Assembly: GCA_000004985.1 (NCBI GenBank)
Contig: GG738926.1
Source of the DNA: Naegleria gruberi
Taxonomy: Eukaryota
Reading direction: 5' to 3' (one strand)
DNA length: 64,000 nucleotides
The translations under genes and the position numbers were made by a program. Under the pieces are notes generated by a model. The model was not told the origin of the DNA, did not search any database, and saw only the letters and a list, made by a program, of their open reading frames with translations. This document shows positions 3,161 to 63,700 of the stretch, in pieces. How positions within the stretch are numbered: position 1 is the first letter of the stretch; the number at the start of each line of letters is the position of its first letter.

Positions 3161-3503
3161 ATATTAAATTACTCTATAATCGCGATTAATGAAAAAAACA
3201 ACAAAATGATGAAGAGGAGTTTATGACTTCTTCCGCGCTGCTGATGATTATTTTTTTAATCGTGAAAAATAATAAAATTTTATTTTTTTAAAGGTTTTTC
3301 ATCAGCCATTTATTTTTATCTTTGCTGCTTGTTTGAATTTCTACTCCTTACCTTTTTTTAATGGTAATTACAAAGTGCATCATTGTTTAGATGAAATAAT
3401 GAATTTTGTTTCAATCGATTGTTTTCCAACAAGTTTGATTTTGGAAGATAATCAAGTTGTAAACAAACAAAATCAATTTTCATAAAAAAATTGATCAAAA
3501 AAA

Positions 3504-22057: not shown

Positions 22058-22738
22058 GATGACGATCTAGTAATTTTTAAAATTATTCGAAAATAGACTA
22101 AACTATCATTAACGAAATTGTTGCGTTAATTTTTTCACTGGTGATAGCACAATTTGACAGGGTGATTGGTGGATATGAAACGATTTCTTTCTATTTCGGT
22201 CAACATCTATCATCAATCCTATCAACATCATCCCCAACTATTCGAAACCAAGAACGAATCTTATCTACAGCCACTATTTTATTAAGATCTTCATTTAGTC
22301 ATTATGTATTCAACCCTTTCCACACGCATCTTGTTCTTTATAAAATCTTATTCGAAACTCAAAAATCAGACAACTTTCCACTACTGTAAACTGAAGATTT
22401 ATCTTCATCATCGTCAGTCCACAAAGCATAAATTCCACTACTCAATTCTCGTTTTCCATTTTGGTTGACTTTATAAAATGATCCTGGTTCGTTTTCATCT
22501 TCAAATAAAAGTTTGGAAATGTCAAGAGGTTTGACACGTGTGTTTTCAATGAGATATTGAGCTAGTTCTTCATGATTGTTCATGTATGATATTTCGATGG
22601 GTCTGAATTGGAAGTTGATTGCTTGTTTGTGAGATTCTACATCGAGGAAACCTTCACTTCCTGTGTGTTTCTGGTATGTTATTGGAATCGAATAGGAATT
22701 AGTTTGAAACTTACATATTTCTGGGCAAGTTAGAATTT

Positions 22739-24120
22739 TTACAGAATGAATAGAGGACTACTTACAATAGGAGGACCTAACAGGTCTGGTTTCAAGTCCT
22801 TTCTCATATTTACAAATAATTTAACAATTTCTAAATCTCCTTTCGAACAAAGCTCATAAAATACGAAACCTCTATTAACATCCAAGTCTTTTCTAGAAAG
22901 TAATTTAGTGATTACTTCAAATTTGGTTTGGTTACTCAATTTGATGGCGCTTTTCAATATTAACCCATCTTCAATATTCAAATCAAGATTTGTATTCGTA
23001 AGGAAACGTGAAAGAATTTCAGAATTTTCTAAACAATAAGCAAGTGGACAACCTTGATTGATATCAATGTTTGGATTATTCAGAAATAGCTGCACCATTT
23101 CAAGATTACCAGATTTACAAACTTGAACAAACGATTGACATTCGTTTGGATTAGTTTTTGAGTTTTCCAACAATATTCCAATAATGTCCATACTATGATT
23201 ATCATCCAGAGCTATTCTCAGTGGTGTTATGTGCTCAATCTTATCCAAACTATCTCTCAAAATATGTGGAAACTTTTCAAATAGGTTCGTCTCTGAAACT
23301 TCCTTAATTCCAAAATTAGTATCAATATTTGGCTTTTTCAAAATCAATTTCACAATGTGTTTGCTCGCCTTCTTCATTGCCAGAAACAGTATCGACCTGC
23401 CATGTAATTCTGAAACACTCGATGTCCCAAATGTCAAATATCCTGCATATCCCTTATTAATATCAATGTCACTCCTTCCCATCAAAATCTCAGCAGTTGA
23501 ATAATGACCATTCTCAATAGCCACATACAAAGCTGTCTTGGCACATGGAAAAATCAAATCACCTTCAGATTTATGCTTCTTCTCATGAATTTTCAAATCA
23601 CTTTTCGATTTTCTAAATTCGTCTTGTCCCTTCTTTACATCATTCTTTTGGAAATTTAAAATTTTTGTAATTTTAAATGGAAAATTACTTACAATCTGAA
23701 TAATGGTCAAATTTACAAATTAAAATTCACTAAAATTGACAAGAAACTTACTCTTTCAATTTGAATTGAAAATTTGTTCACTTGAATGTGATTCGAATTA
23801 TTGAACGAAAGTAGCAGCTTGACAATTTCATCGTGACCTCTTTTACTGGCCAAATAGAGTGGAGTTTTGGTTGAATAGGCATTATCACATCCCAAATTAA
23901 TATCCAAATCAGGACATTCTAATAATTTATGAATAATCGAAAGGTCACCTCCGAAATGTTTAATTGCTTCGTATAAAAGCGAATGACCTTTATCATTTAG
24001 TTGGTTGATGATGTGGTTTAATTTCATGTGGGAAAGTTGTTCCACCTTTCCTTGTTGAATGAGTTCGAATGCATGATGCTTTCGGTAGGAATCTAATAGA
24101 AACATTTTTTTTAATGTCAA
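22739..24120 (-). CDS. Ankyrin-repeat protein (2 exons resolved, possible additional 3' exons)
   Basis: Exon 1 ~23751..24105 has its true ATG at 24105 (MFLLDSYRKHH...); the track starts at a TTG. A GTAAGT donor is at ~23745-23750 and the acceptor ...ccaaaag| is at ~23655. Exon 2 runs down to 22739. It contains multiple ANK repeats (TPLYLASKRGHDEIVKLLL; TALYVAIENGHYSTAEILM; NPNIDINQGCPLAYCLENS...). A GTAAGT at ~22770-22775 just before the in-frame stop suggests splicing to downstream exons, including the ORF 22359..22583. Confidence 0.7.
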
Positions 24121-34950: not shown

Positions 34951-37900
34951 ATGAGATCTCACAACATCATTGGCTGTTTTTTATTTACCCTGCTATTTAT
35001 TATGATTTTTGGCAGCTGGGTTTCCAATGCCGCTGTATCAATAGATGTAAATTATAATATCTACCAATTAGTTGCCTCTTTCTACAATATCAGATCTATG
35101 GACTTTGACAAGCAAAATAATATCCTGTACATTGTCGGCGCTAATAACAAGGTTGTAAAATATACTGCTGCAAGTGGTACGACTGAATATGATGCATCAG
35201 CATATACTCCTTATGGCATTGCTGTCAATTCTACAAGTGCCTATTTTTCAGTATTTAATCCAGCTTCATTAAAAAAGTGGGACGGAGCTGTAGGAACCTC
35301 ATCTTATCATCTCATTATGCCAGGTTCAGTTTCTACATCAGGTTCAGATGATATAGTAGCAAATTCTTCATTGACGACGAAGCCGAAATATATGAGAATA
35401 TCATCAACCACAGGTGATTTATACTTTACGGAAGCATGCAGAGTGAGAAAAATATCAAATGGTATGGTTCGTGCTGTTGCAGGTAAAACTACTTGTACTT
35501 CCTCATCAGGAGATGGTGGTTCAGCCACAAATGCAGAATTTAATGGAGCTCCATATTATATTGCCTTAACACCAGAAGATGATTTACTTGTCATGGATAA
35601 TGTAAATAGACTGAGAAAAGTTAGCAATGGCACAATTACTACAATTCTATCACCTACCTCTTGTAGAGGTCTTGCTGTCGGTACTAATGGAGATATTTAC
35701 ATAATAGGTAAGTAATTGGATAAGAGCAAATTTCAATAATTATTATGTAGATGATCAAGTAGTTAGTAAGGTGAGGAATGGAGTTTCAACCACTATTGCT
35801 GGTGGTGGTGGAACTTCAACGAGCTCTTTTTCCTCAAATGATCCTCTATCATATGGTTTTGCTTATGCAGAACTCAGTGATATTGTCGTTGGTGTGAATA
35901 ATAGTCTTTATTTTGTTGCTGATCAGAAGTTATTCAAATTAGAACCTTATTGCAGTTCAGGTTATGTACTTTCACCTGATTATACTATTTGCTATCCTGT
36001 CTGCTTTAATACAGTAGCAACATCTCAATCAGTGTGCTCTAATTCAAATGGTACCTGTATTGCTCCTGATACATGTTCTTGCAAAGCTGGTTATACTGGT
36101 TCCAAATGTGAAATTCCAATCTGTTACGGATTACTCTCCAATGACACAGCCAATGCTTGCAGTGGAAGAGGATCTTGTGTAGCAAAGGACACTTGTGTCT
36201 GTCAACCAAATTATTCTGGACTTGCTTGTAATATCACTACCTGTTCTTCAATTTCTAGTACCAGTGCAAATGTTTGCTCTAGAAGAGGGTCATGCACTGC
36301 CTATAATACTTGTACTTGTTCGCAAAATTATTATTATGGAACAGATTGTCAAAATACTTACTGTTATTCAATTTCCTCTACTGATTCAAGTGTTTGTAGT
36401 GGACATGGTAACTGCTTAGATTATAATCAATGTTCTTGTTCTTCAAAATGGTATGGTTCCTATTGTAACATCACAGAATGCTTTTCTATGTTAAGTAACT
36501 CTTCAAATGTTTGTTCAGGTGCTGGTACTTGTAATTTGCCAAATAATTGTACTTGTAATGCTGGATATAATGGAACTAATTGTGAAAACTTTGATTGTTT
36601 CGGAGTGTCTGTGAATAGTGGCCAAAGTGCATGTCAACACAATGGAACATGCTCAGGACCTGGAGCTTGCTCTTGCTTGCCAACATACTATGGAAAAATT
36701 TGTGAAATATCAACTTGTTATGGTATATTGAGCAATTACTCTAGTGTTTGTTCAAGTCATGGAACCTGCACAATGTTGAATACTTGTGAATGCAGCCAAA
36801 ATTATTATGGAAATAATTGCAGCTTCCCTATTTGTTATGGAATAACATATGATGATACTAGTGTATGTTCTGCTCGCGGAAAATGTATTGGCGGAAATAA
36901 TTGTAAATGTAATAATGGTTATACTGGAGCTAATTGCGAGCTCAATATTTGTTATGGTGTTAACTCTGACCAATCTAATGTTTGCTCTTCACGTGGTTCA
37001 TGTGGTGCACCTGATTCATGTCAATGTACTAATGGATACAGAGGTCCAAATTGTCAATATGTTGAAATGATAATGGACGCCAAAGCGGCAGTTTTATCTA
37101 CAGCAGTCTCCAACGTAATAGCTTCCTATGCTCCTAAAACAGCAACATCTTGCAGTTCTATTTTCTCCTCAAAGGATTTGACATATCTTGGCTCCTCGGA
37201 AACTGTCAGATGTATTTGGAATCAAAACACATTCAAAATTTATTTAGGCTACAGACACTTTGTTTATGATAATATGACCATGGATATCTTTGGTAATGGC
37301 ATGAATTTCACTTTGCAAGTAGTCTTGACAAAGGCCATACAAGATAGTGCCAGTGCTTCTATTTCCATATTACCTCAACTATCTAAGGTACCAAAAACAG
37401 CAATTATTGTTAAATCTTACTCACCATTTGTTTTCCAAGCTTTTAGAAATACTTCAATTGCTTGGTCTAACTCAGGTAATACCGATATCTCTACATTGCT
37501 TTCAGGAATGAGCAACAAACCAGTGGTAGTCATTCCTTCTACAGAAATAACCTCAGCTTCAACCAAATTTTCCTTAAATGTAACAGGTAAAAACTGGATT
37601 GGTGCCACTTCAACTAGTGCAAAAGTTGATATTGATTATACTGCAGCCTATCCATACTTTGAATTAGTATCGGAGACAAGTGGTAGTCAATTTACTTGTT
37701 CTGGTTTTGACTGTATTATTGAAGTTAATCCGTATGTTACACCAACTCCTACAGTCTATTTTGATGTACCATTCAATGCTCTCAATAGTGGTTCTGGAGA
37801 TTATGTAATTAGATTTTTGAATAGAGTTGGCTCTACCATTCTAAACAGTTACTATGAGGGTTCAATGAAACTTCAAACAACCTCTAGTGCCTTAACCTAT

Positions 37901-40900
37901 ACAATGTCCTACACTGGCTTTGAAGAAGTGCCAATCGTGTTGCTCAATACTGAAAAACAATACTATGGAAACAAACTCACAATTACTGCTTCTTTTATTG
38001 ACCCGATGGTTGAATATTTGTTGAGTAGTAATAGTATTAGTGTTTCATGGTTTTGTTTTAGAGGTACTTCAAAGACTGGTCCTTTTTCTGCCTATGACTG
38101 TACTTCTCAAACTAAGGAATTAATCATTGGAGAATCTAACCTTATTGAAGGATACCATCAATTCCAATTCACAGCCACTTTGACAAATTCAAAAATCACA
38201 TCCGTTACCAAAACAGCAATTGTGCAAGTTGTTAAAACAAATATTCCAGATATTCTCTTTGACTCTGTTCCTCCAGTTTATCCATCATCAAGAAACTTGG
38301 TATTGAATGCAGTTATTTCTTCTTCCACGCAAATCGGTAGCGTTGTGTGGCAAGTAACCAAGGGTAATTTACTCAATGAGAATATTCTTAGTCAATCAAG
38401 TACTCTCTCATTGGATGGATACAATATCAAATCAACTTTGGTTATTGACAAGTCTTATTTATTACAAGGTGATTCTTATACATTCACTGTTACTGCTTCC
38501 AATGGTATTGGCTCTTCAACTGCAGCTGTTTCAACTGTTATTGATGTAGCTCCAAGAATTGCTTGTCAAGCCTATGACGCAGCCATAACCAATTCCGTTA
38601 TCTATGCTTACTCTAGTGATGTGGTAATTGATTGTGCTTCACTCTCTGACTACTCAATTGCTTCCTATCATGTCGATATATATGCCAACTCAACCAGGGT
38701 AATGACAGTATCTAAAACAATGAAAAAGACTTTTATTACAAAGGTACCATACGGTCCAAATGGAAATATCAGACTGGATGTACGAGCTGTAAACAAGATT
38801 GGATCTATTTCATCTGCTTCTATTGATCTCAAGGTTTCTCTTAAAAATACTGATAACACCCTCGCTGGAAGAATTGGATTTGCTAGTTCTGAATATGAAA
38901 GCAACAAAGCAAGCTTTACAAGATTAGAAAGTGTTGTTACTATGCATTCTTTATTGTTACTTATTATTCAACAAAATTCTGTTAGTGAATTTGCCAGTAT
39001 AGACTCTACAGCCAAAACTACTCTCACCACCTTGATAACCAATATGTTAACTACTTTGAGTGGTCTGAAGAGTATTAGTTACAACGCAGATGACAAATTA
39101 GCTCCTGTTTTTATTCCATTTGCAAATGATGCTTACAGGTTACTTGCTGTTATTTCTCCAACTACAGTGGCTTCCAATGCTGATCTACTCACTTGGGTTA
39201 AATTCTTCATAACGTCATTCAATGATTACAAGACATATTATAGATCTACAGTTGTACCTACTATTTACGACTCTAAACACTTGACAGAAATTGATTCCTT
39301 GATAGGTATTGGCGCAAAGTATATTAGTGATAGTAGTTTCAGTCCATTATATAAGGAAACAGCTATTATTTCCAAATTGATTACTGACGTTACCAATTCC
39401 ACAACAACGACAACCTCCACCATCGTGGATTCCAGTGGTACGGAGACAAGATTTGATATTGTTGACAGAATTCAACAACTGAATGCCAAGACAATTACAT
39501 TCGCTAATTATCCTTCAATTTCTATTTCCTTCCCATCAGATTTCTACTCACAACTCGGTGTTGAAAATTCAGGATCAGGAGTAACCCTCACTTCTGCTGT
39601 TTCAACCTCTAAATATTCCCAACTAGTAAGCCCTTCTGTTGATATTTCTCTTTCTACCTCTTCAGACGCTGTTATTTCTGTGAGTGGATTGCAAGGAAAT
39701 TTGATTCAAATCAATTTTGGCACCTTATCACAACCTAAAGCTAACTTTACCAGTTACAATTATACTTGCAGATTCTTGAATACTACCTCATCACAATGGA
39801 GTCAGTCAGGAGTGTCAAGCTCTATTTCCATTTTGTCAGATGATGGCCAAACTGTCACCTTTTCTCTTTCATGTTTAACTTCTCACTTGACTTCTTTCGG
39901 AGTTGTTTCTGCTATCATCCCTCCAACATCACAATCTAAAACAGTAACAACAGATAATACTGGTGTTGTTGTTGGTGCTGTTTTGGGTACACTCTTGCCA
40001 TTGATTTTGATAGCTGTTATTGTTGTCGTAGTGGTGATAATTGTAATTATTTTATACAAGAGAAAGAAATCTCTCGACTCATCACAAGTTCAAAATGTTG
40101 AATTGGTCAATAAGAATGTTTCAAGTGTTCATATTAGTGACTTCCCTTCAGAAGAAAGCACTCACTTTAAGCAATTGGTTAGTGTATCTTCTGGATCTAC
40201 TAATTCTGATCCACTTGCAAGATATGCTGATATGGTAAAGATTGGACAAGGCGCATTCGGAAGTGTGTTCAAAGGTGTTGATACAAAGCAAGCAGGAAAG
40301 TTGAAGGCCATCAAGGTTATTAGATTTAATTCTGTTGGTGAATTGAACAATATGCTCAAAGAAGGAACTATGCTCATGAACATTGATCACCCACATATTC
40401 TAAAAGTCAACGAGTTTATTATTGACAAAGATAACATTCTCTGTATTGACACAGATTTCTGCGAAGATGGTGATTTGACCAAGCTTACTCTTTCTGCAGA
40501 GCCAATCCCAGAACCAATCATCAAACAAGTAATTTATCAAATGTGTTCTGCTTTGGCCTTTATTCACAACAAGCTCAAGATTATTCACAGAGATGTTAAA
40601 CCACACAACATTTTCTTGAAAGAATTGACAGATTTTTCAGTTCAAACAGTTTTGGCTGACTTTGGTCTTGCTAAACAAGATCAAAACAACAGCATGAATT
40701 CATATGCTGGTACACCACTTTGTAAGTTTTTATTTTTAATTATTTAATTAACAACCAATTAAATAGACATGAGTCCAGAACTTGCCCTTGGAGGTAAATA
40801 TAACTATAATACTGACACTTGGTCTCTTGGTGTTGTAGCCTATCAATTAATGACTAAAGATATCACAACTGCTCTAAGTCATTTGTGCTTAACAGGAGAT

Positions 40901-54887: not shown

Positions 54888-57800
54888 ATGAAACTATTAA
54901 ACTTGTTTATTTTTCTAATATTATTTCCCACACTAATTTATTCATCATCCGCAGAGGATACGAGAAATTATTCCAGCTCATCCATTAATAATTCGAATAA
55001 TTTTCCTTCATCCTCTTTGAAAACTAATGTTGTTAACTATTCGAAAGGAATTAATTTACAAATAATTTATTACATTAATTCTGATGATGTCAAATATCAG
55101 AATACAACTTGTCAAGACGAAAGTCATCCATGTTCAGATATGAACCAAGTGATCTTGGCAGCAAATACGAAACTATTCGAAATATTTCATGAAAATGATC
55201 AAACTAAATTAGATTCTTTTACAATGATTGTCATGATTGATTCGAAATTGGAATGTAACAAACTGCTCTTTGATTTTTCAAATTATACGAAACGATTCGA
55301 AATGAGGTGGAAAGGATACGAAAATGGTTTATTCTCTGCTTGTCTAAATAGTTTAGATGAAAATTCCATTTTAGATGCTTTCACTGTTGAGAATGGAAAG
55401 ATTTCAGGCGAATTGAATAATAGATTAGGTATCAAGAATTTGGAAATTCGAAACTGTCACGATGGTGGAATGATTTACTTTTATACTAAAATAGAAAATT
55501 TGCTGATTGCTGACAGTTTCTTTCATGAAGATACTGAAATAACTGAGATTACAAATGTACGAGTGGAAAATACGCAATTGGATGATTTTGAAATTGTTTC
55601 GAATGGAGCAAGTGTTGAAATTTCAAATTCTAAAATTCAAGGAATTGTTGATTTGCAGAATTTTAAATCATTTTCTATTCGAAACTCAATTTGGAAAAAT
55701 AACCGAGTTCATGAGGATTATTCATCAACATTTAATTTAGGACAAGATGTTTCATTTGATAATGTAACAACTAATGCTAAAATTGTGTTTATTTCAATCA
55801 AGTCAATCAAGATGAATGGGCTAATTGTACACAATTATGGAAACGGATATTTCTTGTATCAAATGATACGAGTTTCTCATTTCTATCTAAGCAACAGTTC
55901 GTTTGTGGGAAATTTCGTGCTCAACAACTATTTACTCTCCTTGCAAATAGTTGAATCTATACAAATTGAAAATTGTACAGTTTCTAATAATGTTGGAGGT
56001 TTCATCATGGTAACAGATGCTACTTTGATAATGGGACAGGTGAATATACGAATTAGTAAGAGTGTATTTCAATCCAACGAGATGCTGTCAGATATTGCTC
56101 TAATTGACATTGTGGATCAAACAAGAGAGATGTATTTTATCACAGTTGACCATTGTAAATTTTTGGAAAATACAGGAGAATCCACTTTACACATTGATGG
56201 AGGACTTGCCCAAATTTCCAATTCAGACTTCTACTTTAATATTGCAAACGAACATGGTACTGCATACTTGAATTGCTATGTTACAATTTCAAACTCTAAA
56301 TTCATCGCTAATCAAGCCAAGTTAGGAGGAGCCATTTACATTGGTCCTGCTGGAAATATTGATGCATCTCAAACAATTGATTTTACTTGTGATAATAATT
56401 GGGCAACCTACGCTGGAGGATGCATTTATTCAGAAAATTTGGATTTTTCAAAATTGAAACGCATGAATGGAACTAATATTGCTAAATATTATGGAAATGA
56501 TGTGGCCACACCTATTGTGAGTCTGGATGCTACATTTGATGAGGTAGATTCTAATGGAAATATTGAGGTTTACCCAGGTCAAGCATTCCAAATTAATTTT
56601 TTCCCAAGAGACAAGTTCAATCAGAGCACCTCTTATTTATTGAATCAATATTTGTTTATCAATTCAGAAAAAGGTCATTTTACAATCTCTCAGAATTTTT
56701 TAGATGGAATCCATTCTATTCCAGTAGTTTTGCAAATATTTCCAATTGACGACTACAACCCATCATTGCCACCACTTGTAATATTGATTTCTTCAAAAAT
56801 TGAAATCAAAATTCCTGTAAATATTCTCCCATGTCCAGATAGTTCTTTCCTGAAATTATCTCAAAATGGACATTACTGTGAACAAATTCCATTAGCAGCG
56901 ATTCTGTCATCTGTAATTTTGGGAATTATTTTGATAACCATTATATTGGCAGCATTAATAGTGATAGCTAGGAAATTATTGAAATTGAGAAAACAGGAAC
57001 GTGCTGAAAAGAAAATGGAGCTATTGTTCAAAGATAAGGAATTTATATTCGAAACAGAACAAGCACCTCTATTACTTTCTAATACCATCAACAGTAGTGA
57101 TTCAGGTGAAAGTAGATCAATAATTGGAAACAGGCAACAATACATCATTCCAATTTCTGAAATTAATATTTTGAAAAGAATAGGAGAAGGTGGAATGGGT
57201 GTCGTATATCACGCGAAGTGGAATCGAACTGATGTTGCCATCAAACAATTGAAAACAGATTCCAATGATGAAGAATTCGAAAATGAAGCAATTTTAATGA
57301 GCTCACTTCGACATCCATGTATTGTGAGCTGTTTTGGAGTTTCTCTGACAACCAATGGAAAATATATGATTGTAGAATATTTGGAAAATGGAAGTCTAGA
57401 AAAGGCAATTTATAATTCAAAGATGGGAAGAGCAATTTTGAGATTTGAAACCAAGTTGAAAATATTAACTGATGTTGCCAAAGGATTAGTTTATTTACAT
57501 TCAATCAAACCTCATAGAATTATTCATAGGTATGTTTACTACTTTTATTGGAATAGATATTAATTATGGAATAGAGATTTGAAACCAGGAAATTTATTAC
57601 TCGATAAGAATATGAATGCAAAAGTTGGGGATTTTGGATTGAGCAAAATTGTTTCGAATAATTCTGCAACAATGACAGCAAATGTAGGAACTTTACTTTA
57701 CATGGTAAGTCTAGATAATTTCACAAATTGAATTAAATTGTTATCAATTTAGGCGCCAGTAAGTAATTTCGAAATTTAATTTATTAAAATTTCGAATATT

Positions 57801-58217
57801 TTACAATAGGAATTACTTTCGAATGATCACAAAGGTCAAAGTACAAAAGTGGACGTTTATTCATTTGGAATTATTATGTGGGAAATTTTATTCGAAGAAT
57901 CACCATTTTCAAATGAAATTGATGGTTTCACTAATGTTTTCCAAATATTGAAGAAAGTTACAAAAGGTCATCGACCACCCTTACTATTCGAAACTAGTGC
58001 TTTATTGGAGGCAGATAGAAATCAGAAAGTTGATGAATGGATTGATCATAACTTTACAAAGAAACAAATCGAAACTATTGGAAAGGAAAATATTTCTAAA
58101 TTATATGAATCATATATAGAAATTATGGAACACTGTTGGAATCATGACGCATCTAAAAGACCTGAATTTATTGAAATTACAGATCAATTAGAAACCTTGC
58201 AATCGAACTTTGCTTAA
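54888..58217 (+). CDS. Receptor-like protein kinase (TKL-like) with parallel beta-helix-type ectodomain, 4 exons including a 6-nt micro-exon
   Basis: Model: join(54888..57529, 57575..57704, 57753..57758, 57810..58217). It has a signal peptide and a ~650-aa ectodomain with pectate-lyase-like repeat motifs ([18 protein letters not shown]). The TM helix is [25 protein letters not shown]. The kinase domain shows [14 protein letters not shown] / VAIKQLK / HRIIHR|DLKPGNLL / GDFGLSK / GTLLYM|AP|ELL / [11 protein letters not shown]. The micro-exon gcgcca supplies the AP of the APE motif. Intron donors are GTATGT / GTAAGT / GTAAGT. Confidence 0.8.
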
Positions 58218-58248
58218 TTTCCTTTTCCAATCTTTTTTCAAAGGTTTA

Positions 58249-58944
58249 TTATTTCTTATTATTATTAATGTCACTAAATTCATAGATTCCATTTCCATAT
58301 TGTGCCATTTCTTGCATGTTAGGTGCAGAACCTGACCCAATTCCAGTAAAATGGAATGCATCTCTAATAGATTTAAAGGCATCAACAGAGCTGATATCCT
58401 GAATATGACCATCACACATAATCAAAATATTTTCAATCTTTGGAAATTTCCTAAAAGTTTGGTTTAGGGCTTGTTTAAGCAAAGTATTACCCAATAATGG
58501 AACTGACCACACATTAAGAAATTGGTTTAGAGCATCCAAATCAGTAGGTTCAATTGTGTCTCCGTGTTTAAACCACTCAGTTGTAGATCCCCATAAGGCA
58601 ATGGAAATTTTTAGATCTCCAGTATTAAACGCCTTGGATTGAACAAAATTATTAAAACAATCAATTAAAGTTTTGAAAGGAGATCCTTTCATTGATACGG
58701 AAGCATCACCCAGAATAACAATCTGGCCCTCTTCAATGATAGATGATCCAGCAAGTTTTGAATTCTTACTGGTTGTCTTGAGAGAGGTATTGATTTTCAA
58801 AGCATCTGCTCTAGTGGTCACTTGAGCTGGTTCAATAATCTTTGAATTCACCTCGATACCAAAAGAAGGTATTTTCCTTTGGAACATTGTGCTTTGAGCG
58901 TTTAATATTGGTTCTGGCATCAGGTTATTATGATTATGATCCAT
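58249..58944 (-). CDS. von Willebrand factor A-like domain protein
   Basis: 231 aa. QIVILGDASVSMKGSPF carries a D-x-S-x-S MIDAS-like motif after a beta strand, and the alternating hydrophobic pattern fits a vWA/Rossmann-like fold. Assignment is by motif only. Confidence 0.45.
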   Translation of the reverse strand: MDHNHNNLMPEPILNAQSTMFQRKIPSFGIEVNSKIIEPAQVTTRADALKINTSLKTTSKNSKLAGSSIIEEGQIVILGDASVSMKGSPFKTLIDCFNNFVQSKAFNTGDLKISIALWGSTTEWFKHGDTIEPTDLDALNQFLNVWSVPLLGNTLLKQALNQTFRKFPKIENILIMCDGHIQDISSVDAFKSIRDAFHFTGIGSGSAPNMQEMAQYGNGIYEFSDINNNKK

Positions 58945-59011
58945 GGACCTACTACTTACTTTTCAGCATCTTTGTTCTTCTTGTCAATGTCTTCTACGTT
59001 GTTCTTGACAG

Positions 59012-59296
59012 CTACAGTTGCAAAGACATCATCAAGTTGGAGATCTTTGAGCTGTTAGAACCCTCTCCACTTTTAAACTTTTCCTGCATAGCTTTAATGC
59101 TACCTCTTCTTTTTGACAATTCAGTTACTTCCTCTCTTTCCTTGGTAATTGGACTGCTTGAAGTAGAAGCAATCAAAGGAACTTGAAGTAATGATGGCCT
59201 GACTGGAGTCCTCAAATACTTTTGATCAGTTTCATTGCTTGGCTTTTTCTCAAATTGTTGGGAAAGATTTTTAACACTGTTTGTTGTTGGTATCAT
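59012..59296 (-). CDS. Small S/T/K-rich ORF (94 aa) upstream of the vWA-like gene; possible 5' exon or independent small protein
   Basis: ATG ORF on the same strand immediately upstream of 58249..58944. I could not build a phase-consistent splice between the two. Confidence 0.2.
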   Translation of the reverse strand: MIPTTNSVKNLSQQFEKKPSNETDQKYLRTPVRPSLLQVPLIASTSSSPITKEREEVTELSKRRGSIKAMQEKFKSGEGSNSSKISNLMMSLQL

Positions 59297-60160
59297 GTTA
59301 GAGTTGATTTTTTTTGATCATTATTTTCCATGACAGCAAGTCAAATGAAAGAATTTCAAATAATTATTGTAAACTGATTTTTTAGCAAATTTGCACCAAC
59401 CTACCCTGTTTGATGGAAAAGAGCAACCAATCCCCAAACAGAAATAAATCAAACATGTCTATGCTGACCTTATTTCATAATTTTCTGGAAACTAAAGGCA
59501 AGAAATAGTACTCTAGTACCGATAATAATTCTTTACAATCTTTTACTACAGTTTTCATGTCAAATCACCTGATAAATTTATCAACCATGTTCCATTCCGA
59601 CCAAATTGTAATCCAACATCTCAGTTCTTGAGTGAGTAAAGGAGTTGTTCGCGAAAATTAAATTGATGATGGAAAGCAAGAAAGGATGCTAAATATTCTA
59701 TTATACTATTACGAATATTCTTGTTGTTATTGGCTGATAATTTATTATTAATCTCCATTGAATATTATTCTTGATGATGAATTTAAAATCCAAGGAAGGC
59801 TTCCGAACAACATGTTTTTTCTTGATTGTTGCGCTTTCATTTTCCGTTACAAATTTGCAAATAAAAAATATTTCAAAATTAAAATCACTGATGATGAAGC
59901 CATCAATTATTTCAAATAATACTTGTATCTATTCCGTACAGTAATGATGATGAAACTGGCCAAAACTCTAGAAAGCCAGGAAGATCGGATTTTTTACTGT
60001 TAGCATTCTTCCGAACCTTCCTTTCTCTAAGCCTTCCTTTTTTCAACACCATCACAAAGCCTTGTTATAATAATTTAATAATTTGCAACGTTTATTCATC
60101 ATCAAATTCCTTACTTTCAAAGCCATGAATCTTCATTCAGGCAACAAACCTTCCTCCTTT

Positions 60161-60308
60161 ATCACAACAATTAATCATCAATTCTACAACATATGATCTT
60201 ATATTCAATTGTTCATAGATGAAATAATTGCCCTTCATCACAAAAATTAATCATATCAATTCTACAACTTGTGATCTTATATTAAATTGTTCATAGATGA
60301 AATAATTG
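60161..60308. repeat. Tandem direct duplication (2 x ~70-72 bp, ~90% identical) in the pyruvate carboxylase upstream region
   Basis: Unit atcacaa(c/a)aattaatcat(ca)attctacaac(a/t)t(a/g)tgatcttatatt(c/a)aattgttcatagatgaaataattg occurs at 60161-60230 and 60237-60308. Confidence 0.8.
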
Positions 60309-60769
60309 ATCAGCCTCGGCAAATTAGATTAGTCCCCACCTTCACAATGGCATAAACAATCTCATCATTAGCAACCAACTTTCTATTATGTTGCAAAAGG
60401 GCCTGAAAAAGATCTTGAAAATTCGCGAAAGATTTTCGCTTATTTTTACAATGAACACTCGATTCGGATTTTTGAGGAGAATAACAAGCAAGAAATTGAG
60501 CGAGTACAGAGATAAGCTATTTTGTAAACTCGAGTTGTCTGTATTGGTTGGCGACTTTTAGGATTAATTTGGCCAGTAGGAAGTGTTCACCTACTCTCTC
60601 TCTTTCCACAACTGCAGTTGTTGTTGTGAAAACATTTCACAAACAAAAAAACACAACGAAAACACACTTGTCAATTTGTTGCTGTTGATCAAAGAATTTC
60701 AAATTTTGTAAAATAGGTAAGCTAATTTGAAAAGAGCTTCTTGAGATTTATAATTTGATCAAACTATTT

Positions 60770-63700
60770 ATGAAACCAAACACCAATGTGGATCATTATC
60801 AAAAAAAGGACCACATCAAGTCAATCACAACAAGAATGAAGAAAGTTTGTTTATCCAAGTCAACTTCATCCTCTACCTCTGCCAAACTCAATTTTGCTAT
60901 TCAAAAGCATAAGAAGAATGGTAATTCATCTTCAATCTTTAACAGATCTACTCCAATTTCCTTCTCCAACACTGACTATATTCAACAATTATATCGTCAA
61001 TATGGAACCACAAGAATCTCCTTGAAGGAATTTGAAAAGTTGCTTGTGGCCAACAGAGGTGAAATTGCCACGAGAATTTTACGTTCTGCCCACGAAATTG
61101 GTTGCAGAACTGTTTCGATTTATGCAAAACAAGATGCTTCCTCTGTGCATCGTTACAAAGCAGATGGTAAGTTGTTTTATTTGAATATGTTATTATAATA
61201 ATTGATCGTATTTTGTAATAATATTTGATGAAATAATTGTAAAAATTCCGATCAATAGAAAGTTACTTGATCGGAAAGGACAAGGAATTAGGTCCAGTTG
61301 AAGCTTACTTGAGCATTGATGAGATTATTAAAATTGCCAAGGAGAATGGAGTTGATGCCATTCACCCTGGTTATGGATTTCTTTCAGAGAGAGCTGATTT
61401 TGCACGTGCTTGTTCTGAAAATGGTATTCAATTCATTGGTCCAGTAAGTATTTCATGTGATTGCAATAATATATTTAACAAATTGTTGGTAGACTGCTGA
61501 TGTTGTTGAATCTTTTGGTGACAAGACAAGAGCTAGAAAGGTTGCTACTGATATTGGAATTCCTGTTGTTCCTGGAACTCCAACTGTAAGTATTCTATAC
61601 TTCTTTAATCCTTAATCGATTGTAAATTATTCAAATAACTTATGTTCATTCCTATTTATAATGAACTTGTCCAATTGACCAAAATATTAAGGCAGTAACA
61701 AGTATTGCAGAAGCCAAAACCTTCTGCTCCCAAATTTCCTTCCCAGTCATTTTGAAAGCTGCCATGGGAGGTGGTGGAAGAGGTATGAGAGTTGTTTCCA
61801 AAATGGAAGATTTAGAAGAAGCATTCCAAAGAGCTTCCTCTGAAGCTTTGAATGCTTTTGGTTCTTCAGCAATTTTCATTGAAAAGTTTGTTGAAAAGCC
61901 ACGTCACATTGAGGTTCAAATCTTGGCCGATAAGTTTGGAAATGTTGTTCACTTGTACGAAAGAGATTGTTCAGTGCAAAGAAGACATCAAAAAGTTGTT
62001 GAAATTGCTCCAGCTCCACATTTGAATCCTCAAGTGAGAGAAAAGATTTTGGCTGATGCTGTTCGTCTTGCTCGCCACGTCAAGTATCAAAATGCAGGAA
62101 CATTTGAGTTTTTAGTCGATTCTAATGGAAAGGATTATTACTTTATTGAAGTCAATCCACGTCTTCAAGTCGAACACACTGTTACTGAAGAAATTACAGG
62201 TGTTGACATTGTCCGTTCTCAAATCTTAATTGCCGAAGGAAAGAGTTTGGACGAAATTGGTTTAAAACAAGAAAGCATTTCAGTCAGAGGTTCTGCCATT
62301 CAATGTAGAGTTACCACTGAAGATCCATTGAATGGATTCCAACCAGATACTGGTGTATTGGAAGCTTTCAGAACTGGTGAAGGTATGGGTATTCGTTTGG
62401 ATATTGGTTCTGGTTATGTTGGATCAAAGGTTTGTTTTTTTAACACTTTACAAAATATTTAATTCTTCTCGTTCTTTCACATCAATAGATTACACCATTC
62501 TATGATTCGCTCCTTGTCAAGGTCATTGGTAAAGGTCTCACTCATGAAGAAGCTTCCAACAAATTGAGACGTGCCTTGGCTGAATTCAGAATTCGTGGTG
62601 TCAAACACAATATTCCATTCTTGCAAAAGGTCTTATCTCATGAAAAGTTCTTAAATGGTTATGTTGACACCTCATTCATTGATACTAACCCAGAACTCTT
62701 CCAATTCTCATCCAGTGGTAACAGAGCTCAAAAGCTCTTATCATTCTTGGCTGAAAATGTTGTCAATGGACCAACTACATTACTCGTCACTGATTTGGAA
62801 CCATCCAAGAAGAATCCAACTGTTCCAAAGACACCTACTGGTGCTCCTCCACGTGGCTGGAAACAAGTTCTCGATGAACAAGGTCCTGAAGCATTTGCAA
62901 AGGCCATTCGTGATAGAAGTGAATTGCTCATTACTGACACAACCATGAGAGATGCTCACCAAAGTTTATTGGCAACTCGTGTCAGAACCAGAGATTTAAT
63001 GTCTATTGCTCCATATACTGCTCACGCCATGTCAGATTGTCTTTCATTGGAAATGGGAGGTGGTGCAACCTTTGATGTTTGTTTGAACTTTTTGAGAGAA
63101 TGTCCATTCGAAAGATTGGCTAAGTTGAGAGAAGCCATTCCTAACATTCCATTCCAAATGTTATTCAGAGGTGCAAATGCTGTTGGTTACACTGCTTATC
63201 CAGATAATGTTGTTTACAAATATTGTAAGAAAACAGTTGAACATGGTATGGACATTTTCAGAATCTTTGACTCATTGAACTATGTTCCAAATATGGAGTT
63301 GGGTATTGATGCTGTTGGTAGCGCTGGTGGCGTTATTGAAGCAGCCATTAGTTATACAGGAGATGTCAGTGATCCTAAAAAGTCCAAGTATAATTTGGAA
63401 TATTATTTGAAAGTTGCCAGATCACTTGTTGAAAAGGGAGTTCACATTTTGTGTATCAAAGACATGGCTGGTTTGTTGAGACCTAGTGCAGCAACCTTAT
63501 TGATTGGTGCTTTGAGAAAGGAATTCCCACACATTCCAATTCATCTTCACACTCACGATACTGCAGGAACTGGTGTTGCTACTTTATTGGCAGCTGCTGA
63601 AGCTGGTGCTGATATTGTTGACGCTGCTATTGATAGCATGTCAGGATTGACTAGTCAACCTAGTTTGGGAGCTATTGTTGCTTCATTGAAGAACACTCCA

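What the first reader, a model, noticed from the sequence alone, without database searches (positions are those of the whole stretch)
57530..57809. 6-nt micro-exon (gcgcca = Ala-Pro) completes the kinase APE motif of a second receptor-like kinase
Joining ...GTLLYM (exon ending 57704) directly to ELLSNDHKG... (exon starting 57810) would delete the AP of the invariant APE motif. A 6-nt exon at 57753..57758 is flanked by a perfect acceptor (tttag|) and a GTAAGT donor and restores ...GTLLYMAPELLSN... in frame. Micro-exons this small are rare and easily missed by gene callers. The same gene has a 45-nt intron splitting HRIIHR|DLKPGNLL.
Basis: seen in the sequence. Interest (0 to 1): 0.55.

Follow-up and report, generated by a model that had tools for sequence, protein, structure and literature searches.

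The report
Six-base exon in Naegleria kinase
A six-base exon, missed by the reference annotation of the amoeba Naegleria gruberi, very probably supplies the Ala-Pro of the conserved kinase "APE" motif in a receptor-like kinase; this is a useful gene-model correction, but not a new kind of biology.

Summary
The window is Naegleria gruberi. A 1061-aa receptor-like kinase gene (ATG 54888, stop 58218) has introns of 45, 48 and 51 nt. The last two flank a 6-nt exon, GCGCCA (57753-57758), which restores ...GTLLYM-AP-ELLSN.

The reference protein (820 aa) reads through the donor at 57704 and stops inside the intron, so the gene caller missed this exon.

No transcript data were available. Four lines of comparative evidence support the exon:
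- Each of the two intron positions occurs on its own in paralogues.
- A 96-97% identical strain keeps the exon and all four splice sites. Its only indel within the gene lies in the 48-nt intron.
- The closest paralogue keeps a 6-nt Ala-Pro exon with both third codon positions changed (GCACCT), inside introns that no longer align. It also needs an extra 5-nt exon to stay in frame.
- Chance is excluded (1.5e-5 in shuffles), and Pfam Pkinase gains 17 bits with the two residues.

This is a new member of a known kind: very small exons that annotation misses. Whether inclusion is constitutive is untested, because skipping also keeps the frame. Three introns within 11 coding bases in the paralogue is the most unusual by-product.

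The parts
54888..57529 (+). Exon 1 (2642 nt). It encodes a signal-peptide-like N-terminus ([22 protein letters not shown]), a beta-helix/PMP-like ectodomain (GGAIY motifs), a transmembrane segment (from about aa 667), the juxtamembrane region and the kinase N-lobe up to HRIIH-R. It carries GEGGMG (aa 766), VAIK (aa 783) and the start of HRDLKPGN (aa 880).
   Evidence: The reading frame is open from ATG 54888. Pfam Pkinase scores 5.1e-52 on the full model. The reference model P0121 starts later, at Met113 (55224).
57530..57574 (+). Intron 1, 45 nt, GTATGT...AATAG, phase 2 inside the Arg codon of HRD.
   Evidence: Read. It is spliced in the reference protein P0121. The strain contig L060 differs here by one substitution.
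57575..57704 (+). Exon 2 (130 nt): (R)[43 protein letters not shown]. It holds the catalytic loop, DFG and the activation loop.
   Evidence: The sequence is identical in L060.
57705..57752 (+). Intron at position A, 48 nt, GTAAGT...TTTAG, phase 0 between Met924 and Ala925. Read-through reaches TGA after 9 codons, which is where the reference protein ends.
   Evidence: An intron at the same position is found in N. lovaniensis P0006 (L002) and in the paralogue L061. In L060 it carries a 2-nt deletion and 2 substitutions.
57753..57758 (+). Micro-exon GCGCCA, encoding Ala925-Pro926 of the APE motif.
   Evidence: It is identical in L060. Paralogue L061 has GCACCT at the same place, also encoding Ala-Pro. 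Pkinase scores 182.0 bits with it and 164.8 bits without it.
57759..57809 (+). Intron at position B, 51 nt, GTAAGT...AATAG, phase 0 between Pro926 and Glu927. It contains the 12-nt palindrome AATTTCGAAATT.
   Evidence: An intron at the same position is found in N. fowleri P0003 (L001), N. lovaniensis P0012 (L004), metagenome contig L005 and L061. L060 differs here by 2 substitutions. The blastn matches intron bases 7-18 to their own reverse complement (window 57765-57776).
57810..58218 (+). Exon 4 (409 nt including the TAA stop): [30 protein letters not shown]...[12 protein letters not shown]...SNFA. This is the kinase C-lobe and is absent from the reference protein.
   Evidence: The window and L060 differ here by 3 synonymous changes and one Val-to-Ile change.

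Best explanation
The gene encodes a 1061-aa single-pass receptor-like Ser/Thr (TKL-type) kinase of Naegleria gruberi. Its mRNA is made by removing three short introns of 45, 48 and 51 nt.

The last two introns lie 6 nt apart, so GCGCCA between them is a real coding exon. It inserts Ala-Pro and completes the APE motif at the end of the activation segment. All catalytic motifs are then present: GxGxxG, VAIK, HRD, DFG and APE.

The arrangement arose because two separate intron positions coexist in this gene. Position B (between Pro and Glu) is widespread in the family. Position A (between Met and Ala) is rarer.

Inferred, not shown: each ~50-nt intron, with its perfect GTAAGT donor, is recognised as a unit (intron definition). 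The two are probably removed one after the other. The first removal fuses the 6 nt to a normal-sized exon, which relieves crowding between the acceptor and the donor 6 nt downstream.

The reference annotation is wrong at both ends of this gene. It starts at an internal Met and is truncated at the micro-exon.
For: Shown:
1. The sequence anatomy is as described, and only two frame-keeping splice chains exist.
2. The reference protein ends by read-through at 57704.
3. All aligned family members that reach this point have two residues between Y[MIL] and E (AP, AR, AN, SN or SP), and none has a gap there.
4. Position A occurs alone in L002. Position B occurs alone in L001, L004 and L005. L003, L006 and L007 have neither.
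5. L060, a strain 96-97% identical, has the micro-exon and all four flanking splice sites unchanged. Exons carry 21 substitutions in 1859 nt (17 synonymous) and no indel. Introns carry 5 substitutions and a 2-nt deletion in 144 nt (Fisher p = 0.01). Exon 4 carries 3 synonymous changes and one Val-to-Ile, so it is translated in the predicted frame.
6. The sister paralogue L061 is 74% identical in the kinase core and 39% overall. It reads aaaag|GCACCT|gtaagt at the same place, with both third codon positions changed and the other four bases kept. Its introns show no detectable similarity to those of the window gene.
7. In L061 no GT..AG chain keeps the kinase frame without a micro-exon. A 5-nt exon, ATATT, is obligatory and yields GTLL-YI-AP-ELLSN. 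This organism must therefore splice exons of this size.
8. Chance is excluded: 1.5e-5 in each locus and 0 of 100 shuffles of the window.
9. Pfam Pkinase gains 17 bits and PK_Tyr_Ser-Thr gains 10.6 bits with Ala-Pro.
10. Introns of 43-56 nt are the usual short class in this window.
Against: - No RNA evidence was available. The protein collection holds no transcript-derived fragment of this gene.
- Skipping the micro-exon also keeps the reading frame, so a form lacking Ala-Pro cannot be excluded and the inclusion level is unknown.
- Conservation of the 39-nt block around the exon in L060 is not significant on its own at about 5% intron divergence.
- The order of intron removal and the intron-definition mechanism are inferred from work in other organisms (PMC8831610), not from Naegleria.
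- The family tree is a crude neighbour-joining tree without support values.
Confidence: 0.88

Rival explanations
1. There is a single 105-nt intron (57705-57809) and the GCGCCA is intronic. The protein would read ...GTLLYM-ELLSN... without Ala-Pro and would probably be a weakened kinase or a pseudokinase.
For: This chain is GT-AG and in frame. Introns of 92-101 nt also occur among the candidates in the window.
Against: It does not explain an AG-GCN-CCN-GTAAGT island at exactly the place where two residues are missing (1.5e-5 by chance). It does not explain why the paralogue L061 keeps that island with synonymous changes only, inside unalignable introns. No family member lacks the two residues. 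Pkinase loses 17 bits without them.
Confidence: 0.04
2. The micro-exon is an alternative cassette. Both forms would be made, with inclusion giving an active kinase and in-frame skipping giving an inactive receptor, so that splicing tunes signalling.
For: Both forms are in frame, in the window gene and for the Ala-Pro exon of L061. Exon skipping has been detected in N. gruberi transcriptomes, although intron retention dominates (PMC6142364).
Against: Nothing in the sequence points to regulation. Both donors are perfect GTAAGT. The neighbouring 5-nt exon of L061 cannot be skipped without a frameshift, so it must be spliced efficiently. No expression data were available.
Confidence: 0.07
3. The reference annotation is right. 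The gene would be a truncated or decaying copy that ends ...[10 protein letters not shown], and exon 4 would be a dead remnant.
For: This is the reference gene model.
Against: Exon 4 is an intact 136-codon kinase C-lobe. Between the two strains it carries 3 synonymous changes and one conservative change, and no indel, while the introns have accumulated about 5% differences including an indel. The full-length architecture is shared with paralogue L061. The same reference model also starts at an internal Met despite an open upstream frame with a signal peptide.
Confidence: 0.01

Closest known systems
Misannotated coding micro-exons (15 nt or less) of plants (Yu et al. 2022, Nat Commun, PMC8831610)
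   Same: These are very small coding exons that lie inside conserved protein domains. Reference annotations miss them, giving truncated or wrong proteins. They are conserved across paralogues and species. In Chlamydomonas, Pkinase is among the top domains encoded by micro-exons. Their flanking introns are removed consecutively, which I infer here by analogy.
   Different: The lineage is different (Heterolobosea, Discoba). The flanking introns are only 48 and 51 nt. No RNA evidence exists yet. I found no report of micro-exons in Naegleria in the searchable library.
Near intron pairs (NIPs) and intron sliding (Lehmann et al. 2010, PMC2891723)
   Same: Two intron positions less than 32 nt apart occur in homologous genes. 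Here positions A and B are 6 nt apart and occur singly in different paralogues.
   Different: [quoted passage not shown] Here A and B coexist in the window gene, and C, A and B coexist within 11 coding nt in L061. They are therefore separate introns, not one intron that slid. The introns share no sequence similarity, so nothing suggests tandem duplication.
Neuronal micro-exons of animals (3-27 nt; dependent on SRRM4 or PRP-40/PRPF40A)
   Same: These are tiny in-frame exons that alter surface or functional loops of proteins. They are a challenge for the spliceosome (abstracts listed).
   Different: The animal micro-exons are regulated cassettes flanked by long introns and recognised with dedicated enhancers. 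The Naegleria exon completes an invariant catalytic-domain motif, sits between minimal introns, and is most likely constitutive.
Naegleria transmembrane kinases with PMP-like (GGAI) ectodomains
   Same: The window protein has the same architecture as L061 and as the split gene models next to N. fowleri P0003 and N. lovaniensis P0006. In both of those, an upstream open reading frame with a faint Chlam_PMP hit is followed by a kinase.
   Different: Intron content differs from copy to copy. For example, L061 lacks the HR|D intron and has one in YMI|VEY.

Membership tests
Coding micro-exon (internal exon of 15 nt or less, spliced into the mRNA) | Internal segment bounded by a canonical acceptor (AG) upstream and a canonical donor (GT) downstream | tested here: met
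   The sequence reads tttag|GCGCCA|gtaagt. It is the only such site in the window.
Coding micro-exon (internal exon of 15 nt or less, spliced into the mRNA) | Inclusion keeps the reading frame and improves the match to the protein family | tested here: met
   The frame is kept. Pkinase scores 182.0 bits with it and 164.8 without. All homologues have two residues at this point.
Coding micro-exon (internal exon of 15 nt or less, spliced into the mRNA) | Conservation of the exon and its splice sites in related genes, with a coding-type substitution pattern | tested here: met
   The exon is identical in strain contig L060. L061 has GCACCT, with both third positions changed, still flanked by AG and GTAAGT inside unalignable introns.
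Coding micro-exon (internal exon of 15 nt or less, spliced into the mRNA) | Presence in mature transcripts, shown by junction reads or cDNA | not testable with these tools
   No read data were accessible, and no transcript-derived protein of this gene was in the collection. RNA-seq exists under PRJEB23822.
Eukaryotic protein kinase domain (Pfam PF00069 / PF07714), predicted active | Significant match to the domain model over its full length | tested here: met
   Pkinase scores 1.8e-53 over profile positions 3-258 of 263. PK_Tyr_Ser-Thr scores 1.2e-51.
Eukaryotic protein kinase domain (Pfam PF00069 / PF07714), predicted active | Catalytic motifs GxGxxG, VAIK Lys, HRD, DFG and APE | tested here: met
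   GEGGMG at aa 766, VAIK at 783, HRDLKPGN at 880, DFG at 900 and APE at 925 in the 1061-aa model. APE is present only when the micro-exon is included.
Eukaryotic protein kinase domain (Pfam PF00069 / PF07714), predicted active | Phosphotransfer activity | not testable with these tools
   This needs biochemistry.
Introner / transposon-derived or tandem-duplication-derived introns | Sequence similarity between the two flanking introns, or to other introns or copies elsewhere | tested here: not met
   Among the nine short introns compared, only one pair reached z > 2 against shuffles (L061 intron C with window 35708-35750, z = 2.3), and no pair involving the micro-exon's flanking introns did. 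blastn-short found only the introns themselves and their L060 or L062 counterparts. The search covered only the window and 62 fetched loci, not the whole genome.

The most novel reading that the evidence does not exclude
Ultra-short exons (5-6 nt) between minimal ~45-50-nt introns may not be a one-off. They could be a recurrent feature of Naegleria genes that annotation misses systematically. The activation-segment end of this receptor-kinase family would then be an intron-gain hotspot, with three independent positions (C, A and B) within 11 coding nt that can all coexist. This would show that a spliceosome working by intron definition has essentially no lower exon-size limit. It would undercut the assumption behind near-intron-pair phylogenetic markers. 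It would also mean that a noticeable share of Naegleria protein models are truncated at such sites. A second candidate 6-nt exon in an unrelated gene of this window (22715-22720, minus strand) points the same way, as do several fragmentary N. gruberi kinase models (P0013, P0017, P0127).
Probability: 0.35. Interest if true: 0.6.

Novelty: new member of a known kind. Interest (0 to 1): 0.42.

Why it matters
- It corrects a reference gene model. An 820-aa truncated "predicted protein" becomes a complete 1061-aa receptor-like kinase with a signal peptide and an intact catalytic domain.
- It warns that Naegleria annotations, including those of the pathogen N. fowleri whose family members are split into two genes, mishandle short introns and tiny exons in a large signalling family.
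- For intron evolution, it is a clean example of two intron positions coexisting 6 nt apart. In the paralogue, three positions coexist within 11 coding nt.
- The same positions occur singly in other paralogues, which argues against intron sliding here. It also argues against the idea that very close introns exclude each other.

Tried and rejected
1. **Transcript evidence.** All three protein searches (the kinase domain, the full length, and a 128-aa junction-centred query) returned no transcript-derived fragment. The only 100% hits were the genomic models P0121 and P0123.
2. **N. gruberi paralogue loci.** P0004 and P0013 are not on record in the contig collection, so other NEG-M paralogues could not be examined.
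3. **Metagenome scan for close relatives.** It returned 52 loci, all 41% identical or less over long matches. The 11 of them that I examined around APE showed no further micro-exon example.
4. **Synteny to find the true N. fowleri or N. lovaniensis orthologue.** tblastx showed only the kinase gene itself matching, not the neighbouring genes, so L001-L004 are paralogues.
5. **Tandem duplication or an introner origin of the two flanking introns.** I rejected this, because they show no similarity beyond the splice sites.
6. **The other kinases in the window.** Those at about 40.2-40.9 kb and 51.0-51.7 kb are only about 25% identical and are not informative for this exon.
7. **Literature.** I found no paper on Naegleria micro-exons and none citing PRJEB11402, the source of L060 and L061.
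8. **The candidate micro-exon at 22715-22720 (minus strand).** The surrounding protein is too poorly conserved to decide.
Full report
**What is there.** The window has about 33% G+C. It encodes a protein that is 100% identical to 'predicted protein [Naegleria gruberi]' (P0121), so it is N. gruberi nuclear DNA.

On the + strand, an open frame starts at ATG 54888 with a signal-peptide-like N-terminus. It runs uninterrupted to 57529. It encodes a beta-helix/PMP-like ectodomain with GGAIY motifs, one transmembrane segment (from about aa 667) and the N-lobe of a protein kinase.

The remaining gene structure, all read directly, is:
- a 45-nt intron at 57530-57574 (GTATGT...AATAG), phase 2 in the Arg codon of HRD
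- exon 2 at 57575-57704, ending ...GGA ACT TTA CTT TAC ATG
- a 48-nt intron at 57705-57752 (GTAAGT...TTTAG)
- GCGCCA at 57753-57758
- a 51-nt intron at 57759-57809 (GTAAGT...AATAG)
- exon 4 at 57810-58218 (GAA TTA CTT TCG ... TAA)

**Is it more than chance?** I enumerated every GT..AG chain through the region. Only two keep the downstream kinase frame. One includes GCGCCA (...[17 protein letters not shown]...) and one omits it (...GTLLYMELLSN...).

The pattern YAG-GCN-CCN-GTRWGT occurs once in the 64-kb window on both strands, at this site, and in none of 100 dinucleotide-preserving shuffles. AG-GCN-CCN-GT arises in 1.5e-5 of 200,000 shuffles of the 105-nt stretch.

With the two residues, Pfam Pkinase scores 182.0 bits. 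Without them it scores 164.8 bits. PK_Tyr_Ser-Thr scores 176.0 and 165.4 bits respectively. The 1061-aa model has GEGGMG, VAIK, HRDLKPGN, DFG and APE.

**What the annotation did.** The reference protein P0121 (820 aa) reads [14 protein letters not shown] without interruption, so the 45-nt intron was recognised. It ends ...[14 protein letters not shown]. That ending is a read-through of the donor at 57704 to the TGA inside the 48-nt intron. The whole C-lobe (exon 4) is therefore missing from the reference protein. The model also starts at an internal Met (aa 113, nt 55224) although the frame is open to 54888.

**Comparative evidence, part 1: the two intron positions.** I fetched the genomic DNA of family members and read the region at base level.
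- Position B (phase 0, between the 'AP' pair and Glu) is occupied in N. fowleri P0003 (L001, ...ATG GCG AGA|gtaagt...acag|GAA), in N. lovaniensis P0012 (L004) and in metagenome contig L005 (...ATT GCA CCA|gtaagt...acag|GAA).
- Position A (phase 0, between Met and Ala) is occupied in N. lovaniensis P0006 (L002, ...TAT ATG|gtaggt...aaag|GCA CCT GAA).
- L003, L006 and L007 have no intron there.

Both splice events of the window gene therefore have precedents in the family, each on its own. In the protein alignment, every member that reaches this point has two residues between Y[MIL] and E (AP, AR, AN, SN or SP). None has a gap.

**Comparative evidence, part 2: a close strain.** Contig L060 (ENA ERZ929261, run ERR1078381) is 96.4-97.5% identical to window 56216-63460. 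In it the micro-exon and all four flanking splice sites are unchanged.

Over the aligned gene, exons carry 21 substitutions in 1859 nt and no indel. Seventeen are synonymous. Twelve of the 21 fall in the kinase part, and eleven of those are synonymous, the other being Val-to-Ile. The three introns carry 5 substitutions and a 2-nt deletion in 144 nt. The deletion lies in the 48-nt intron (Fisher p = 0.01).

Exon 4 alone has 3 synonymous changes and one Val-to-Ile change. It is therefore under purifying selection in the predicted frame, which is incompatible with the truncated reference model. Conservation of the 39-nt block around the micro-exon is not significant by itself at this divergence.

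**Comparative evidence, part 3: the sister paralogue.** Contig L061 comes from the same sample, and the Logan contig L062 is identical in this region. It encodes a full-length paralogue with a 1065-aa model. It is 39% identical to the window protein over 1036 aa and 74% identical in the kinase core. It is the window gene's sister in a crude neighbour-joining tree.

Its sequence reads ...GGA ACT CTA TTA T|gtaagt(45 nt)aaag|ATATT|gtaagt(40 nt)aaaag|GCACCT|gtaagt(49 nt)aatag|GAG TTA CTT.... The 6-nt Ala-Pro exon is thus present at the same place. Both third codon positions have changed (GCG CCA to GCA CCT) and the four constrained positions are kept. The flanking introns show no detectable similarity to those of the window gene. 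This is the signature of a translated exon.

L061 also has a third intron (position C, phase 1 in the Tyr codon), which creates a second micro-exon of 5 nt. Enumeration shows that no GT..AG chain in L061 keeps the kinase frame unless a micro-exon is used. The best chain, with all donors GTAAGT, gives GTLL-YI-AP-ELLSN, which matches YIAPE in L005 and L006. This organism must therefore be able to splice exons of this size.

A fragment from another sample (P0149) reads ...GTLLCK...DSDIVSNF.

**Origin.** Position B occurs in both the window/L061 clade and the N. fowleri/N. lovaniensis clade. It is therefore the older position, or a recurrent one. Position A is shared by the window gene and L061 and occurs separately in N. 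lovaniensis P0006. The 6-nt exon thus predates the duplication that gave the window gene and L061.

I found no similarity between the two flanking introns, with other introns, or elsewhere in the window or fetched loci. Nothing therefore points to tandem duplication or to an introner family, although the whole genome was not searched. Intron content is very fluid in this family. L061 lacks the HR|D intron and has one in YMI|VEY. An unrelated kinase in the window, at about 40.7 kb, has an intron at the C-like position.

**How it most likely works.** The points above show that the exon exists and that it is conserved as coding sequence. The mechanism below is inferred.

Introns of 43-56 nt are the usual short class in this window. 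Such introns are recognised across the intron itself. Both donors here are perfect GTAAGT.

The acceptor of intron A and the donor of intron B are only 6 nt apart, so two spliceosomes can hardly assemble side by side. I therefore expect the introns to be removed one after the other. The first removal fuses the 6 nt to a normal-sized exon. This was shown for plant micro-exons, where the downstream intron tends to go first (PMC8831610).

Retaining either intron gives a stop within 9 or fewer codons. Skipping the exon gives an in-frame protein without Ala-Pro, so a minor skipped form cannot be excluded.

**Comparison with what is known.** Micro-exons of 1-15 nt, their location in conserved domains (Pkinase among them in Chlamydomonas) and their pervasive misannotation are established in plants (PMC8831610). 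Regulated micro-exons are well known in animals and have been described in a fungus. I found no report for Naegleria or other Heterolobosea.

[quoted passage not shown] The window gene has two introns 6 nt apart, and L061 has three introns within 11 coding nt. They are counter-examples in an organism with minimal introns.

**Verdict.** It is a new member of a known kind and a concrete correction of a reference gene model. The paralogue with tandem 5-nt and 6-nt exons is the most unusual by-product. The decisive test is a search of existing N. gruberi RNA-seq (PRJEB23822) for the junction CTTTACATG-GCGCCA-GAATTACTTTCG.

Noticed in passing
L061:3230-3374 (ENA ERZ929261 contig k127_300871; identical in Logan contig L062): The closest paralogue has two tandem micro-exons, ATATT (5 nt, 3275-3279) and GCACCT (6 nt, 3320-3325). 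They are separated by introns of 45, 40 and 49 nt, so three introns lie within 11 coding nt. The 5-nt exon is obligatory for the kinase frame.
   Followed up: yes
window 22671-22765, minus strand (candidate exon 22715-22720): A 95-nt candidate intron in an ankyrin/formin-like gene contains cccag|AAATAT|gtaagt. This would split it into 45-nt and 44-nt introns around a second possible 6-nt exon encoding Lys-Tyr. Both readings keep the frame, and the local protein is too poorly conserved to decide.
   Followed up: partly
window 54888-55223: The reference N. gruberi protein P0121 starts at Met113 (nt 55224). The frame is open up to ATG 54888, which gives a signal-peptide-like N-terminus ([22 protein letters not shown]). 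The model is therefore probably truncated at the 5' end as well.
   Followed up: partly
window 58955-59602: About 650 nt of the window have no counterpart in the 97%-identical strain contig L060, which has about 40 nt there. The indel begins next to the GTAAGT (58954-58959, minus strand) of a short intron in the neighbouring gene, which L060 annotates as VWA-domain. It could be an insertion or deletion polymorphism, or an assembly collapse.
   Followed up: no
window 40722-40766, plus strand: An unrelated kinase (about 25% identical) has a 45-nt intron in phase 1 inside the Tyr codon just before MSPE (ctt t|gtaagt...atag|ac atg agt cca gaa). This is the same place as intron C of L061. The end of the activation segment seems to attract introns in Naegleria kinases.
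   Followed up: partly
L001:67-3800 (N. fowleri) and L002:1-3875 (N. lovaniensis): In both annotated genomes the family member is split into two gene models. An upstream open reading frame with a faint Chlam_PMP hit (the ectodomain) is followed by a separate kinase gene. These are probably single receptor-kinase genes that were mis-split. Several N. gruberi kinase models (P0013, P0017, P0127) are likewise fragments that begin or end near intron positions.
   Followed up: no
window 57765-57776: The 51-nt intron contains a perfect 12-nt palindrome, AATTTCGAAATT, and a near-repeat, AATTTCGAATAT (57786-57797). TTCGAA-like cores also occur in introns of L061. Their significance is unknown.
   Followed up: no
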